NCBI RefSeq assembly: GCF_963676685.1
Contig: NC_092346.1
Location: 102,548,001 to 102,612,000 of the forward strand
DNA from: Mytilus edulis
Lineage: Eukaryota
Direction of reading: 5' to 3'
Length of the DNA: 64,000 nt
The position numbers are program-made. Positions 27,001 through 63,000 of this stretch are shown here, one piece after another. Positions within the stretch are counted from its first letter, which is position 1, and every line of letters begins with the position of its first letter.

Positions 27001-30000
27001 TAAATGTTTTAATAGGTACCAACCTTTACCCTTACCGTAAACAATAGCATAACAGTCTGATTTTGAAGTTTTTTATGACATGAATAACTTTTGTGGAAAT
27101 TTATAAAATTTGAACAGAAGCTTTTTTCTATCCAAAAGACAGTGCCCAGACCAAAGTTATTTTATTTATTTTATATTTTCTTATTTTACTGGTTATGTAA
27201 GTACTTTTTAAAATAGTAGTTGTTATCAGTTTAAATCAAGTACTGTTTATAGAGAACATAGAATAACCTGTTTTTATCCAGCCATCTTCTGTAATAGACC
27301 TCCTGGTTGCTTCTTCATTGTTTAAATATCCTTTAGTAATTTGTGGCCCACACGCCCATATTTCACCAGACTCAAATGCTTTTGTTATAGTTTCTCCATT
27401 TTCAATATCAATTAGCTAAAATAATATATAAAGATTATATCAGTCTATAACTAATTAAAATTTGTGGATGTTTGGAAATTATGGGATGATTGTCAAATTG
27501 CATATCACTAGTTCTTGATTTATCGATTGATTCCTATGATGTAGGAATATAGAAGTTAAACCTTTGAGTATTCAATTATTATAGTCATACCAAGGATTTG
27601 TATAGTAAATATACAAATCCTTGGTCATACATTGAAAAGAGTGATATGCAATTCAGACCCACTGAAGCAATGGAAACATCCATTTTGATACATTACTATA
27701 CTGAGTAAAAATTTATATAATATAATTATAAAAAGTTAAAAGATTAAAATTACACTTATCATATACATTTATCTAATACAGCTTGTTAAGTTGTTAAAAG
27801 ATCTTTATAATGTGTTCTTGCATGAGATGAGTTACCTTTGATATAGTATTGGGTACTGGCTTGCCGATAGAACCATATTTATGACATCCAACAGGATCAG
27901 TGAATATTTACCTTTGATATAGTTTTGGGTACTGGCTTGCCGATAGAACCATATTTATGACATCCAACAGGATCAGTGAATATTTACCTTTGATATGGTA
28001 TTGGGTACTGGCTTGCCGATTGAACCATATTTATAACATCCAACAGGGTCAGTGAATATTTACCTTTGATATAGTTTTGGGTACTGGCTTGCCGATTGAA
28101 CCATATTTATGACATCCAACAGGATAAGTGAGTATTTACTTTTAACAGAGACATATATTGTATTATATGTCTCTGCTTTTAATATGGTATTGGGTACTGG
28201 CTTGCCGATTGAACCATATTTATGACATCCAACAGGATCAGTGAATATTTACCTTTGATATGGTATTGGGTACTGGCTTGCCGATAGAACCATATTTATA
28301 ACACCCAACAGGGTCAGTGAATATTTACCTTTGATATAGTTTTGGGTACTGGCTTGCCGATTGAACCATATTTATGACATCCAACAGGATCAGTGAATAT
28401 TTACCTTTGATATAGTATTGGGTACTGGCTTGCCGATTGAACCATATTTATAACATCCAACAGGATCAGTGAATATTTACCTTTGATATGGTATTGGGTA
28501 CTTGCTTGCCGATTGAACCATATTTATAACATCCAACAGGATAAGTGAGTATTTACTTTTAATATGGTATTGGGTACTGGCTTGCCGATTGAACCATATT
28601 TATAACATCCAACAGGATCAGTGAATATTTACCTTTGATATGGTATTGGGTACTGGCTTGCCGATTGAACCATATTTATAACATCCAACAGGATCAGTGA
28701 ATATAGCGCCACTAGTTTCTGACATTCCATAGCCTGTTCAATAAATTGGTAATCACATTTTATGACATTTTACCTTATTTTAAAAACATTGATAACTGTT
28801 TCAAATACTTATTGCTTAATTTTATTTATCTGTCAGTGTGTCACATAATTCAGGATTTTTTCTCATCTTTGCGAGGCAAGGGTAACCCTTGTCTAGAGAA
28901 GATAGAGAGAAGGGAAGTGGATCGTAACCCTTGTCTAGAGAAGATAGAGAGGAGGGAAGTGGATCGTAACCCTTAGGTAGAGAAGATAGAGAGGAGGGAA
29001 GTGGATCGTAACCCTTAGGTAGCGAAGATGTGTTTGCCTTTGATGCTTGATGTATTTTCCTTCTTCTCTTTTCTTCTCCATTTTTGTCGAGCCTGCCACT
29101 TTTGTCGCAGAAAGCTCGACATAGGGATAGTGATCCGGCGGCGGCGCCTTTAGCTAACTTCTTAAAAGCTTTATATTTTAGAAGGTGGAAGACCTGAATG
29201 CCTCATACTTTGTATATGGATGCCTCATGTTACGAAGTTTCCGTCAGCCACATGTCCAATGTTCTTGACCTCATTTTCATGGTTCAGTGACTACTTGAAA
29301 AAAAGTTAAGATTTTTTTGTAATGTTAAACTCTCTCTTATTATAAGTAGTAGGATAACTATATTTGGTATGTGCATACCTTGCAAGGTCCTTATGTCGGT
29401 CAGACAGTTTTCACTTGACCTCAACCTCATTTCATGGATCAGCAAACATGGTTAAGTTTTGATGGTCAAGTCCATATCTCAGATACTATAAGCAACAGGC
29501 CTAGGTCTAGTATATTTGGTGTATGGAAGCATTGTAAGGTGTCATCTGACCTTAACCTTATTTTCATGGTTCAGTGGTTATAGTTAAGTTTTTGTGTTTT
29601 GGTCTGTTTTATAATCCTGGTACCTTTGATAACTATTTCTTATACTGTATGCAATAGGTCTACTATATTTGGTGTATGGAATGATTGTAAGGTGTACATG
29701 TCTAGCTGGCAGGTGTCATCTGACCTTGACCTCATTTTCACGGTACAGTGGTCAAAGTTAAGTTTTTTAGTTTTGGTCTTTTTTAGCTCACCTGACCTGA
29801 AAGGTCAAGTGAGCTTTTCTCATCACTTGGGGGTCCGTCCTCCGTCGTCGTCCGGCGTCACCGTCGTCTGTAAACTTTTACAAAAATCTTCTCCTCTGAA
29901 ACTACTGGGTCAAATCTAACCAAACATGGCCAAAATCATTATTAGGGTATCTAGTTTAAAACTTGTGTCCAGTGACCCGTCCAACTAACCAAGATGGCCG

Positions 30001-60000: not shown

Positions 60001-63000
60001 ACACCCATCACCTGAAATATCAAACAGTAATTATACATGTTACAACCCTCAGGTTCAAAACGATACCCATCACCTGAAATATTAAACAGTAATTATACAT
60101 GTTACAACCCTCAGGTTCACAACGATACCCATCACCTGAAATATCAAACAGTAATTATACATGTTACAACCCTCAGGTTCACAACGATACCCATCACCTG
60201 AAATATCAAACAGTAATTATACATGTTACAACCCTCAGGTTCACAACGATACCCATCACCTGAAATATCAAACAGTAATTATACATGTTACAACCCTCAG
60301 GTTCAAAACGATACCCATCACCTGAAATATCAAACAGTAATTATACATGTTACAACCCTCAGGTTCACAACGATACCCATCACCTGAAATATTAAACAGT
60401 AATTATACATGTTACAACCCTCAGGTTCACAACGATACCCATCACCTGAAATATCAAACAGTAATTATACATGTTACAACCCTCAGGTTCACAACGATAC
60501 CCATCACCTGAAATATCAAACAGTAATTATACATGTTACAACCCTCAGGTTCAAAACGACACCCATCACCTGAAATATCAAACAGTAATTATACATGTTA
60601 CAACCCTCAGGTTCACAACGATACCCATCACCTGAAATATCAAACAGTAATTATACATGTTACAACCCTCAGGTTCACAACGATACCCATCACCTGAAAT
60701 ATCAAACAGTAATTATACATGTTACAACCCTCAGGTTCACAACGATACCCATCACCTGAAATATCAAACAGTAATTATACATGTTACAACCCTCAGGTTC
60801 ACAACGACACCCATCACCTGAAATATCAAACAGTAATTATACATGTTACAACCCTCAGGTTCAAAACGATACCCATCACCTGAAATATCAAACAGTAATT
60901 ATACATGTTACAACCCTTAGGTTCACAACGATACCCATCACCTGAAATATCAAACAGTAATTATACATGTTACAACCCTCAGGTTCACAACGACACCAAT
61001 CACCTGAAATATCAAACAGTAATTATACATGTTACAACCCTCAGGTTCACAACGATACCCATCACCTGAAATATTAAACAGTAATTATACATGTTACAAC
61101 CCTCAGGTTCACAACGATACCCATCACCTGAAATATCAAACAGTAATTATACATGTTACAACCCTCAGGTTCACAACGATACCCATCACCTGAAATATCA
61201 AACAGTAATTATACATGTTACAACCCTCAGGTTCAAAACGACACCCATCACCTGAAATATCAAACAGTAATTATACATGTTACAACCCTCAGGTTCACAA
61301 CGATACCCATCACCTGAAATATCAAACAGTAATTATACATGTTACAACCCTCAGGTTCACAACGATACCCATCACCTGAAATATCAAACAGTAATTATAC
61401 ATGTTACAACCCTCAGGTTCAAAACGACACCCATCACCTGAAATATCAAACAGTAATTATACATGTTACAACCCTCAGGTTCACAACGATACCCATCACC
61501 TGAAATATCAAACAGTAATTATACATGTTACAACCCTCAGGTTCAAAACGATACCCATCACCTGAAATATCAAACAGTAATTATACATGTTACAACCCTC
61601 AGGTTCAAAACGACACCCATCACCTGAAATATCAAACAGTAATTATACATGTTACAACCCTCAGGTTCAAAACGACACCCATCACCTGAAATATTAAACA
61701 GTCATTGTATATGTTGTAAATACGGTGCGAACACAACACTGGAACATAACTTAATTTTCATATTATAATGTAAAGACTTTGTGAAGTGTCACTTGTATTT
61801 TTGGGCATTATATAGATCGATTACATATTAAAATATGTTTTCTTCCTTAACTCACATATTCTCAACATTTTGGTGTCGTGACCAGTATTTGAAAAAGCTG
61901 ATATTGATTAGGAAAGGGGACAGAAGTGTTGTGACAAGACATCAACGAAAAATAAATAATTTGATAACATTAGAAAGTGTAAAACAAAAGAAGAAACTTT
62001 GGACTATTTAAATCAACAGATTATAAATGCAATCAGTTCAGAGGATATTGAAGAAGAAATTCTCAATACAGATGAGTGTACTTTAGACTTAGAAACTTAA
62101 AGGATAATTCGTGATTTTTCACTTTTCATCTTAATATGTTCATAATACCATAAAAAACATATTCACCAAGTTTTATTTCGATATGAAAAGTAATAAAGAA
62201 GAAAATTGGGAATTATTAATTTTATTTTTTCAAACTTCCTGACTTATGTGACGTAGTTTAAGTCTTTGAGCATGCCGGGAGTGAAATTAATCTCATTTAA
62301 GTCTTGTTCGTTAACCATCTAATAACGCTATTCAAAGCGCATCGACGACCTTTGGTGTAGCTATTAACCAACAAAAAGTAAGTGATAGCCATGCAACTTT
62401 TAAAATTAGATTGTAGGATTTATGTGTGGATTTTTTATATGAATTCTAGTAATTAAAGTGAATAATACATTAGAACATTTTTATGATTTTTTTCTTCAAA
62501 CACTTTAAACAAACATAATCAAGGTAATTAAAAGATTAGCATTATGTAATTCTAATCTTTTGATCTTCATTCAGTGACATCTAGGCGTCACGGTTCACTA
62601 TTTCAGGTGTGAACAACATTTCGTATGAATGATATACGGGAGTCAGTTATAGTTTTAGACACAGAAATGTAAGAAAAAGAATTAAAATGAATTTACGGGA
62701 GAAATAAGGTCGCACAATAACTGGATAGCTGTTGTAGCTGTTGTATATTTTTATATAATTCGCATAAGCTCACTTTTAAATGAATTATGACTTCTGATTA
62801 CTTTTGTAACGATAAAATACTGAATTATTTTAATTGAATAAATTTATAAATAAAAATAGCCTTCTAAACACGAGTGTATGAACTAAAAATTGTACTTTTT
62901 TAAATTAGAATCGGCAACCGTTAATATTTCAAACAGATTGCAATTATATAATTTAGTCCATCCAAAGCGATCTTTATTTACCTATTTAGGAATTAATGTT

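What the first reader, a model, noticed from the sequence alone, without database searches (positions are those of the whole stretch)
27832..61711. Possible general process: tandem arrays seeded at RNA-processing junctions and expanding only into the non-coding side
Seen: two unrelated genes in 64 kb each carry a 60-80 bp array whose unit straddles an exon-intron boundary (one donor, one acceptor) while the CDS stays intact. A third array (67 bp) starts ~65 nt after a candidate poly(A) signal. Inference: this may be a recurrent class of splice-junction satellites. They could arise from slippage at junction microhomologies and persist because the intact exon stays at one end. They could supply raw material for intron sliding, new microexons or dosage variation. 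I do not know whether this has been described for this lineage.
Basis: inference. Interest (0 to 1): 0.75.

Follow-up and report, generated by a model that had tools for sequence, protein, structure and literature searches.

The report
Tandem repeats copied from splice junctions
Two genes each carry a repeat array built from a piece of their own exon plus the adjoining splice site, which is a real and tidy example of a known kind of mutation rather than evidence for a new general process.

Summary
The three arrays are real. Two are built from a segment spanning a splice junction of a real exon.

Array A is 11 copies of 76 nt: 72 nt of the exon end plus GTAA, in an AMP-binding (luciferase-like) gene. 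Array C is 45 gapless copies of 62 nt: 12 nt of intron ending TTTCAG plus 50 nt of exon, in an EGF/YWTD-propeller gene.

Only the copy touching the rest of the exon keeps the frame open. Every other copy gives a stop within 37-48 codons.

Array B (67 nt, about 99 copies) is intergenic. Its "poly(A) signal" is one of 7 such hexamers in 2.7 kb, and 11% of random positions have one as close.

The region is crowded with arrays: 16 loci, with surplus copies making up 26% of the window. Random seeding predicts 0.82 junction-spanning arrays among 12, against 2 seen (P = 0.19).

"Expansion only into the non-coding side" follows from geometry. Microhomology is absent at A and ambiguous at C.

Repeats at exon-intron boundaries are already described in human genes. 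No transcripts, other genomes or genome-wide test were available.

The parts
27832..28704 (-). Array A. It has 11 copies of a 76-nt unit, made of 72 nt of exon 3' end plus GTAA. Copy 1 (28704-28629) is the working exon end and donor. Copies 2-11 lie in the intron.
   Evidence: Mean pairwise identity is 94.3%. AAG|GTAA is kept in 9 of 11 copies. Copies 2 and 7 share AAA|GT and other variants 380 nt (5 units) apart, which points to a block duplication.
28633..28733 (-). Exon 7 of gene 1 (an AMP-binding, luciferase-like acyl-CoA-synthetase-type enzyme). It is 101 nt long, with two leading bases of a split codon, and ends in phase 0 at AAG|GTAAAT.
   Evidence: Pfam AMP-binding positions 318-355, E 2.6e-05, below the curated cut-off. 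(luciferases, best E 0.0057)..
27268..27415 (-). Exon 8 of gene 1. Its acceptor ttttag| sits at 27416 in phase 0. The 3' end given here is approximate.
   Evidence: AMP-binding positions 356-384, E 0.064, weak..
28139..28182 (.). A 30-bp perfect-stem palindrome (28146-28175) flanked by a 7-bp direct duplication. It interrupts array A between copies 7 and 8.
   Evidence: hairpin of -10.2 kcal/mol, z -5.78, and 0 of 200 shuffles fold as well.
25427..35125 (-). Gene 1, an AMP-binding enzyme gene with 11 coding exon pieces.
   Evidence: AMP-binding or AMP-binding_C hits in 7 of 11 pieces, in colinear profile order. Three of the 7 exceed the curated cut-off.
42898..49604 (.). Array B. About 99 copies of a 67-nt unit, A+C-rich on the + strand, intergenic. 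Its edges are more diverged than its centre.
   Evidence: rough edit counts; minus-strand G+T 0.718. All frames are closed. No other copy in the window. No flanking inverted repeats.
49670..49675 (-). The candidate poly(A) hexamer AATAAA, 65 nt upstream of array B on the minus strand.
   Evidence: It is one of 7 such hexamers in the 2.7 kb downstream of gene 2's stop codon. No evidence that it is used.
58908..61718 (-). Array C. It has 45 gapless copies of a 62-nt unit, made of 12 nt of intron ending TTTCAG plus the first 50 nt of the exon. A degenerate partial copy of about 21 nt sits at its upstream edge (61698-61718). Copy 45 (58969-58908) is the working acceptor and exon start.
   Evidence: TTTCAG is kept in 45 of 45 copies. 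24 of 45 copies are identical to the consensus. Mean pairwise identity is 97.8%.
58808..58957 (-). The EGF-type exon of gene 2. It is 150 nt long, with acceptor tttcag| and donor GAG|gtaaat.
   Evidence: EGF_3 E 5.8e-07, EGF E 6.5e-05. (Notch EGF repeats, E 0.0075)..
52370..58957 (-). Gene 2, as far as it lies in the window. It has three EGF exons, a YWTD (LDL-receptor class B) propeller, a terminal EGF-like exon and a stop codon at 52370-52372. Its upstream exons lie beyond the window or were not found.
   Evidence: 7 of 10 exon pieces hit EGF-type or Ldl_recept_b families. LRP2/4/6, nidogen and LDLR propellers; no upstream exon in 61700-64000.

Best explanation
**What A and C are.** Arrays A and C are two independent, local tandem duplications.
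- In each, the 62-76-nt seed segment happened to span a splice junction of a real, conserved exon: a donor in gene 1 and an acceptor in gene 2.
- Each seed was later amplified to 11 and 45 copies. The likely mechanism is unequal exchange or replication slippage between copies (inferred).
- A duplicated segment that spans a junction always leaves one copy joined to the rest of the exon. The surplus copies therefore lie in the intron by geometry, not through any polar mechanism.

**Why the genes survive.**
- One frame-preserving path remains, through copy 1 of A and copy 45 of C (shown).
- The other 9 intact donors and 44 acceptors are decoys. Using any of them would put a premature stop in the mRNA (shown). 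Such transcripts would presumably be avoided by exon definition or removed by nonsense-mediated decay (inferred, untested).

**Array B.** It is an ordinary intergenic satellite-like array. Its nearness to an AATAAA hexamer is within chance.

**Why they occur together.** Arrays are extremely dense in this region, and selection removes any array that breaks a coding sequence.
For: **The units are copies of the genes' own sequence.**
- The units of A and C are colinear and in register with the exons they abut. They occur nowhere else in the window.
- The exons are real.
- The AMP-binding profile runs from 355 to 356 across the junction when copy 1's donor is used.

**Only one path is open.**
- Only 1 of 11 donors and 1 of 45 acceptors leave the frame open. 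All the others give a stop within 37-48 codons.

**The surplus copies evolve without coding constraint.**
- In C, 10 of 45 copies carry a change at unit position 28 that turns a Cys codon into Phe.

**The arrays behave like ordinary arrays.**
- The exon copy of C has 3 private bases. Two of them (positions 53 and 57) recur in the degenerate outermost partial copy. So the edges keep the ancestral state while the interior is homogenised.
- A shows a 5-unit block duplication. B is most diverged at its edges.

**Array density explains the count.**
- There are 16 TRF loci. Surplus copies make up 16,874 of 64,000 nt.
- The expected number of junction-spanning arrays is 0.82 of 12, with P(>=2) = 0.19.
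Against: - For the five long-unit arrays the excess is marginal (2 seen against 0.48 expected, P = 0.074). A modest real enrichment is therefore not excluded.
- The null model uses approximate exon coordinates and an incomplete third gene.
- All 44 decoy acceptors and 9 of 10 decoy donors are intact. If they were harmful, decay might be expected, although the arrays are young (94-98% identity).
- No transcript data show which sites are used.
- The upstream exon of gene 2 was not found.
- A 6-nt identity at the ends of unit C, 2 nt out of register, has a chance probability of 0.3%. It hints at a homology-assisted first step.
Confidence: 0.72

Rival explanations
1. RNA-processing junctions seed tandem arrays, through slippage at junction microhomologies or a transcription- or splicing-linked mutational bias. 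That would produce a recurrent, enriched class of splice-junction satellites.
For: - Two of the 5 long-unit arrays span a junction, against 0.48 expected (P = 0.074).
- A 6-nt GATATT lies at both ends of unit C, 2 nt out of register, with a chance of 0.3%.
- Unit sizes are similar: 62, 67 and 76 nt.
Against: - With all 12 main arrays, P = 0.19. The window was also picked after the fact.
- Array A has 0 nt of microhomology at any offset from 0 to 4, apart from 1 nt.
- The poly(A) case is within chance.
- The units show no unusual single-strand folding: z = 0.77, -1.64 and 1.05.
- 14 of the 16 TRF loci do not touch a recognised exon.
Confidence: 0.12
2. The arrays are tolerated, or even used, because each unit carries an AG|GT site that can act as both acceptor and donor. 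On this view array C is removed stepwise in multiples of 62 nt (recursive splicing). Splicing to any acceptor could then still end in the correct mRNA, or give a ladder of unproductive isoforms that tunes dosage.
For: - 45 of 45 units of C read TTTCAG|GTGATG.
- Each unit has a TAAC motif 28 nt upstream of the next AG (read).
- GTGAT-type donor candidates occur at gene 1 exon ends (32814 and 26650).
- Tandem AGGT arrays that splice in unit multiples are documented for human UBC and VCX3A.
Against: - There are no transcript data.
- The unit lengths (62 and 76 nt) are not multiples of 3.
- GTGATG lacks the +5 G.
- Whether a 62-nt intron is possible in this organism is unknown.
- In array A the AGGT has no pyrimidine tract, so this reading does not cover A.
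Confidence: 0.1
3. The arrays are central repeats of non-autonomous mobile elements (for example Helentron-type carriers of satellite-like repeats) that inserted near these sites.
For: - Such elements spread satellite-like arrays through an oyster genome (abstract only).
- The origin of array B is unknown.
- The 168-bp array at the window start is followed by paralogous ORFs.
Against: - The A and C units are copies of the adjoining exon sequence, in register.
- No other copy of any of the three units occurs in the window.
- No inverted repeats flank B.
Confidence: 0.03
4. Assembly artefact: the copy numbers are inflated or invented by mis-assembly of repeats.
For: Nothing specific. Long, near-identical arrays are hard to assemble.
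Against: - The copies carry ordered, non-random variants and block structure.
- Edge copies are more diverged.
- The window has no N.
Confidence: 0.03

Closest known systems
Internal tandem repeats at exon-intron boundaries of human genes in segmental duplications (De Grassi & Ciccarelli 2009, PMC2812944; outline and passages read)
   Same: These are minisatellite-type repeats located at exon-intron boundaries. They can create new introns or alternative splicing through repeated or cryptic splice sites. They are treated as a source of change in gene structure.
   Different: Those cases were defined by copy-number differences between paralogs, with transcript support. Here there is one locus each, no paralog or transcript evidence, much higher copy numbers (11 and 45), and a non-human, AT-rich genome. 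Their supplementary Table S3 could not be seen.
Tandem arrays of dual-specific AGGT splice sites, as in polyubiquitin UBC and VCX3A (Duan et al. 2024, PMC10809524; abstract and passages read)
   Same: An AG|GT motif recurs once per repeat unit. That paper also makes a genome-wide intersection of introns with tandem repeats and proposes that repeats with splice sites drive gene evolution.
   Different: In UBC the units are coding, a multiple of 3, and delimit protein monomers. Here the units are 62 and 76 nt, out of frame, and the surplus copies are intronic decoys. Use of the sites is untested.
Intron gain or sliding by tandem duplication of a segment with a proto-splice site. Sources: Lehmann et al. 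2010, PMC2891723, abstract read. Hellsten et al. 2011, PMC3265369, start of abstract in listing. Zhuo et al. 2007 PNAS, seen only as a reference and not held.
   Same: A tandem duplication multiplies splice signals, and one copy or part of it becomes intronic.
   Different: Those models duplicate exonic sequence to create a new intron. Here an existing junction was duplicated, no new intron position is created, and the copy number is far above two.
Satellite-like arrays carried by Helentron-type non-autonomous elements in the Pacific oyster (Vojvoda Zeljko et al. 2020, PMC7492417; abstract read)
   Same: These are short, dispersed satellite-like arrays in gene-rich euchromatin of an AT-rich invertebrate genome.
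   Different: Arrays A and C derive from the local exon sequence, not from a mobile element. The organism of this window is not known to me.

Membership tests
Tandem repeat array (minisatellite / satellite-like) | Head-to-tail copies of one unit with high identity | tested here: met
   (TRF scores from 554 to 11699); 11 and 45 copies in register; identity 94.3% and 97.8%.
Tandem repeat at an exon-intron boundary (sensu De Grassi & Ciccarelli) | The repeat unit contains a splice site of a real exon, and the array ends inside that exon | tested here: met
   For A and C. The exons are supported by domain matches. The splice sites are inferred from sequence, frame and profile colinearity, not from transcripts. 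Not met for B.
Tandem repeat at an exon-intron boundary (sensu De Grassi & Ciccarelli) | Copy number varies between paralogs or individuals, and transcripts show the altered splicing | not testable with these tools
   No other copy of this genome, no population data and no transcripts were available.
Dual-specific (AGGT) splice-site tandem array (UBC type) | An AGGT motif once per unit | tested here: met
   C: 45 of 45 units. A: 9 of 11 units keep AAG|GT.
Dual-specific (AGGT) splice-site tandem array (UBC type) | Units are coding, in frame (a multiple of 3), and delimit protein modules | tested here: not met
   Units are 62 and 76 nt. Every added unit brings a stop within 37-48 codons.
Dual-specific (AGGT) splice-site tandem array (UBC type) | [quoted passage not shown] | not testable with these tools
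   This needs RNA data.
Intron gain by tandem duplication of an exonic proto-splice site | The duplicated segment lies wholly within an exon and a new intron position results | tested here: not met
   Both units span an existing junction. The profile is colinear across the old junction.
Mobile-element-borne satellite-like array (Helentron/HINE type) | The same unit at other loci with shared flanking modules | tested here: inconclusive
   There are no other copies in the 64-kb window and no flanking inverted repeats at B. A genome-wide check was impossible. For A and C, colinearity with the exon argues against membership.
Array linked to a cleavage/polyadenylation site | A used poly(A) site immediately upstream of the array | tested here: inconclusive
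   The hexamer is present 65 nt upstream. It is one of 7 in 2.7 kb, and 10.8% of random positions match the criterion. Its use is untestable here.
AMP-binding enzyme family (gene 1) | Pfam PF00501 plus PF13193, in colinear order | tested here: met
   7 of 11 exon pieces hit, and 3 of them exceed the curated cut-off.
EGF + LDL-receptor class B (YWTD) propeller proteins (gene 2; nidogen- or LRP-like) | EGF-type domains and Ldl_recept_b repeats | tested here: met
   7 of 10 exon pieces hit. LRP2/4/6, nidogen and LDLR. Which subfamily it belongs to was not decided.

The most novel reading that the evidence does not exclude
In this lineage tandem duplication may be frequent enough that junction-derived arrays form a real, recurrent class.
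- Arrays whose unit carries an AG|GT site, such as array C with 45 of 45 units, would be tolerated because they can be spliced out in unit multiples.
- They would then act as fast-changing modulators of intron length and of the share of productive mRNA.
- They would also act as a reservoir from which unequal exchange can rewrite the end of the exon. In array A the exon copy differs by only 1 nt from two intronic copies.
Probability: 0.1. Interest if true: 0.65.

Novelty: new member of a known kind. Interest (0 to 1): 0.3.

Why it matters
- If the sites are as they look, these two loci are natural experiments in splice-site choice. One conserved gene has 11 near-identical donors in a row. Another has 45 identical acceptors, each with a possible branch site. 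In each gene only one choice gives a protein.
- Measuring which copies are used would show how strongly exon definition or decay of faulty mRNA protects genes in a repeat-rich genome.
- It would also show whether copy number changes gene output.
- As evidence for a new mutational process, the loci carry little weight at present.

Tried and rejected
**Searches that found nothing**
- Rfam at gathering thresholds gave 0 matches. ARAGORN gave 0 tRNA or tmRNA genes.
- No inverted repeats lie around array B.
- A self-BLAST of the window found no other copies of the A, B or C units.
- A search for the exon upstream of array C in 61700-64000 found no EGF-like frame among 45 ORFs of >=25 aa.
- A search for further coding exons between gene 2's stop codon and array B found none recognisable.

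**Tests that did not support an idea**
- Single-strand DNA folds of two-unit stretches of A, C and B are no more stable than shuffles (z 0.77, -1.64, 1.05). Hairpin-driven slippage is therefore not supported.
- Pfam on 9 further ORF pieces gave only a weak DnaJ hit (E 0.041) and nothing for the transposon-like ORFs.

**Readings rejected**
- Alternative or mutually exclusive exons: the units carry only one kind of site and are out of frame.
- Mobile-element origin for A and C: the units are colinear with the exons.

**Literature**
- A literature search on competition between identical splice sites returned nothing useful.
- Zhuo et al. 2007 is not held.

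
Full report
**Scope and limits**

The window is 64,000 bases with no N and about 33% G+C. I do not take it for human.

The organism is unknown to me, and I did not try to trace the record.

No collection of eukaryotic genomes, transcripts or proteins was available. The following therefore stayed unchecked:
- conservation in relatives;
- copy-number polymorphism;
- splice-site usage;
- the genome-wide enrichment test.

Gene models were searched exon by exon. 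Supplementary files of papers were closed. Table S3 of De Grassi & Ciccarelli and Table S4 of Duan et al., which list the human cases, were not seen.

**The observation**

Tandem Repeats Finder reports 46 rows, which I group into 16 loci. The three arrays of the finding are:
- A: 27832-28704, period 76;
- B: 42898-49581, period 67, 99.2 copies;
- C: 58908-61715, period 62, 45.3 copies.

Surplus copies of the 12 main arrays take up 16,874 of the 64,000 bases.

**The genes**

Stop-to-stop frames and Pfam searches of single exon pieces show two minus-strand genes.

Gene 1 (about 35125-25427):
- AMP-binding or AMP-binding_C matches appear in 7 of 11 pieces.
- The profile order is colinear: 19-82, 139-193, 204-257, 258-310, 318-355, 356-384, then the C-terminal domain.
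- Three of the 7 matches exceed the curated cut-off.
- Four pieces gave no such match.

Gene 2 (58957-52370 within the window):
- EGF-type matches appear in three pieces, Ldl_recept_b in three, and an EGF-like FXa_inhibition match in the last.
- That makes 7 of 10 pieces, with 3 giving nothing.
- One propeller piece matches LRP2/4/6, nidogen and LDLR structures.

A third gene on the + strand (13658-24433) is only weakly supported, by a DnaJ match with E 0.041 on one of four pieces.

**Array A**

On the minus strand it is 11 copies of 76 nt. Copy 1 (28704-28629) is the last 72 nt of a 101-nt exon (28733-28633) plus GTAA.

Support for the exon and its donor:
- The exon piece matches AMP-binding profile positions 318-355 (E 2.6e-05, 23.6 bits, below the 29.9 cut-off).
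- The next exon piece, which starts at 27415 behind ttttag, continues at position 356 (E 0.064).
- The exon also aligns with firefly-type luciferases at residues 338-372. Best E is 0.0057, and 18 sequences match at E <= 1.
- AAG|GTAAAT at 28633 is the only donor candidate before the frame closes.

Features of the copies:
- Nine of 11 copies keep AAG|GTAA.
- Copies 2 and 7, which lie 380 nt (five units) apart, share AAA|GT and further variants. This indicates duplication of a multi-unit block.
- A 30-bp palindrome with a 7-bp flanking direct duplication interrupts the array between copies 7 and 8.
- The surplus copies and this insert make up 797 of the 1,217 nt of the intron.

The donor-context column printed is shifted by one base. 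The donors read correctly.

**Array C**

On the minus strand it is 45 gapless copies of 62 nt. Each copy is 12 nt ending TTTCAG followed by 50 nt that start GTGATG. Copy 45 (58969-58908) runs straight on into the rest of a 150-nt exon (58957-58808), which ends at GAG|gtaaat.

Support for the exon and its acceptor:
- The exon matches EGF_3 (E 5.8e-07) and EGF.
- It aligns with Notch EGF repeats (E 0.0075). The repeated 50 nt encode the end of one EGF module and the first cysteine region of the next.
- The acceptor at 58957 is the only pyrimidine-rich YAG site between the upstream stop and the start of the EGF match.
- I found no upstream exon within the window. The intron is therefore at least 5,043 nt long, 2,766 nt of it surplus copies. 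The phase of the upstream donor could not be checked.

Features of the copies:
- All 45 copies keep TTTCAG, and 24 of 45 are identical to the consensus.
- The exon copy has three private bases, at unit positions 41, 53 and 57.
- Upstream of copy 1 lies a degenerate partial copy of about 21 nt. It shares 12 nt in register with the exon copy, including the bases at positions 53 and 57.
- I read this as follows. The two edge copies keep the ancestral state, and a variant unit was amplified in the interior.
- Ten of 45 copies carry a change at position 28 that would turn a cysteine codon into phenylalanine. This fits the absence of coding constraint on the surplus copies.

**Consequences for the reading frame**

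I read from each alternative acceptor of C to the true donor, and from the true acceptor to each alternative donor of A. Only copy 45 of C and copy 1 of A leave the frame open. The other 44 and 10 give a stop within 37-48 codons.

So "the CDS stays intact" holds only if the copy abutting the rest of the exon is the one used. Which copies are used is unknown.

By established knowledge (recalled, not from a call), exon definition favours the site that gives a short exon. Intron definition and site proximity would favour the copy nearest the partner site, which for array A is a decoy. Transcripts with premature stops are usually degraded. None of this could be tested here.

**Array B**
- It is about 99 copies of 67 nt. 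The edges are more diverged than the centre (these edit counts are rough).
- It is closed in all frames and G+T-rich on the minus strand (0.718).
- It has no other copy in the window and no flanking inverted repeats.
- That hexamer is one of 5 AATAAA and 2 ATTAAA in the 2.7 kb between gene 2's stop codon and the array.
- 10.8% of random non-array positions have such a hexamer 30-100 nt upstream on that strand, and 20.7% on either strand.
- I see no support for a link to RNA 3'-end processing, though it cannot be excluded without 3'-end data.

**Chance**

I collapsed each array to one unit. I used 25 approximate exons (50 junctions) in a collapsed window of 47,126 nt.
- A random seed of the observed unit length spans exactly one junction with probability 0.02-0.14.
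- That gives 0.82 expected among the 12 main arrays, with P(>=2) = 0.19.
- Among all 16 loci the expectation is 0.89, with P = 0.22.
- Among the five arrays with period >=60 and >=4 copies the expectation is 0.48, with P = 0.074.
- Removing seeds that would fall wholly within exons changes little: 0.84 expected, P = 0.20.
- Missing exons would raise the expectation further.
- The window was also chosen after the fact.

The co-occurrence is therefore what a very array-rich region would give.

**Mechanism**

Shown:
- The units are copies of local exon-plus-junction sequence.
- The arrays end in register inside the exons.
- Only one frame-preserving path remains in each gene.
- The interior copies are homogenised and unconstrained.
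- Array A grew at least once by a five-unit block.

Inferred:
- A first short tandem duplication happened to span a junction. Unequal exchange or slippage then expanded it.
- Selection removed any version that damaged the exon copy.

"Expansion only into the non-coding side" needs no polarity. It is the only possible topology for a duplicated segment that spans a junction.

Microhomology:
- It is absent at A (0 nt in register, at most 1 nt at offsets up to 4).
- At C there is a 6-nt identity 2 nt out of register (chance 0.3%), as well as the 12-nt match of the partial copy.
- The units do not fold unusually.

**A bolder reading that is not excluded**

Every unit of C carries AG|GT.
- A TAAC motif lies 28 nt upstream of the next AG (read).
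- GTGAT-type donor candidates occur at gene 1 exon ends.
- Such dual-use sites in tandem repeats splice in unit multiples in human UBC and VCX3A.
- Array C could therefore be removed stepwise, and any acceptor choice could still lead to the correct mRNA.
- In array A the exon copy differs by one base from two intronic copies. Unequal exchange could therefore move intron-born variants into the exon end.
- Both ideas are untested.

**Comparison with what is known**
- Repeats at exon-intron boundaries that create introns or alternative splicing are described for human genes in segmental duplications (PMC2812944; passages read).
- Tandem AGGT arrays, and an intron-by-repeat intersection analysis, are described for human (PMC10809524; abstract and passages).
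- Tandem duplication as a source of new intron positions is described for Drosophila (PMC2891723; abstract) and in PMC3265369 (listing only).
- Zhuo et al. 2007 was seen only as a reference.
- My searches did not turn up a description of high-copy arrays derived from an existing splice junction in an invertebrate. These six searches cover only the held library and cannot show absence.

**Verdict**

The proposed general process is neither needed nor supported by this window. The loci are new examples of a known kind, and they are attractive for a direct test of splice-site choice.

Noticed in passing
28139-28182: A 30-bp palindrome (arms 28146-28157 and 28164-28175) is flanked by a 7-bp direct duplication inside array A. 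It looks like a tiny inverted-repeat insertion or a transposon footprint. The matching copy of the 5-unit block (copy 2) lacks it, so it arrived after the block duplication. The arm motif occurs nowhere else in the window.
   Followed up: partly
91-4675 and 5936-6186: A 168-bp array of about 26 copies contains triplets of an 11-nt motif. A separate 36-bp array 1.3 kb away is built from the same 11-mer (90-92% cross-matches). Next to them lie two paralogous minus-strand ORFs (6309-6749 and 7689-8039; 91% identity over 192 nt) with no convincing Pfam match. This may be a mobile element carrying repeats.
   Followed up: partly
19682-21134: A 124-bp array of about 8-11 diverged copies (75-85% identity) lies within what seems to be an intron of a weakly supported + strand J-domain gene (13658-24433; DnaJ E 0.041 on one piece).
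   Followed up: partly
35514-35697, 34374-34734, 28882-29016: Gene 1 holds three more arrays that do not touch exons. A 25-bp array lies about 400 nt upstream of the first coding exon. A 192-bp unit with 1.9 copies lies in intron 1. A 42-bp unit with 3.2 copies lies 150 nt upstream of the exon 7 acceptor. That makes four arrays in about 10 kb of one gene.
   Followed up: no
29500-31350: Intron 6 of gene 1 contains nested direct duplications. One pair is 29875-30416 against 30378-30912 (86.7% over 543 nt). Several repeats of 75-155 nt are also present.
   Followed up: no
41778-42140; 26802-27054; 14054-14118; 56848-56924: A dispersed repeat near 41.8-42.1 kb has diverged partial copies (73-81% identity) in an intron of gene 1, in the + strand gene region and in an intron of gene 2.
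   Followed up: no
23586-23956 (minus strand): Two overlapping long frames (81 and 91 aa) look transposase-like to my eye (recalled impression). Pfam gave no match.
   Followed up: partly
26650 and 32814 (minus strand): AG|GTGAT or G|GTGAT motifs also sit at likely ordinary exon borders of gene 1. The AG|GTGATG of the array C unit is therefore not unusual for this genome.
   Followed up: no
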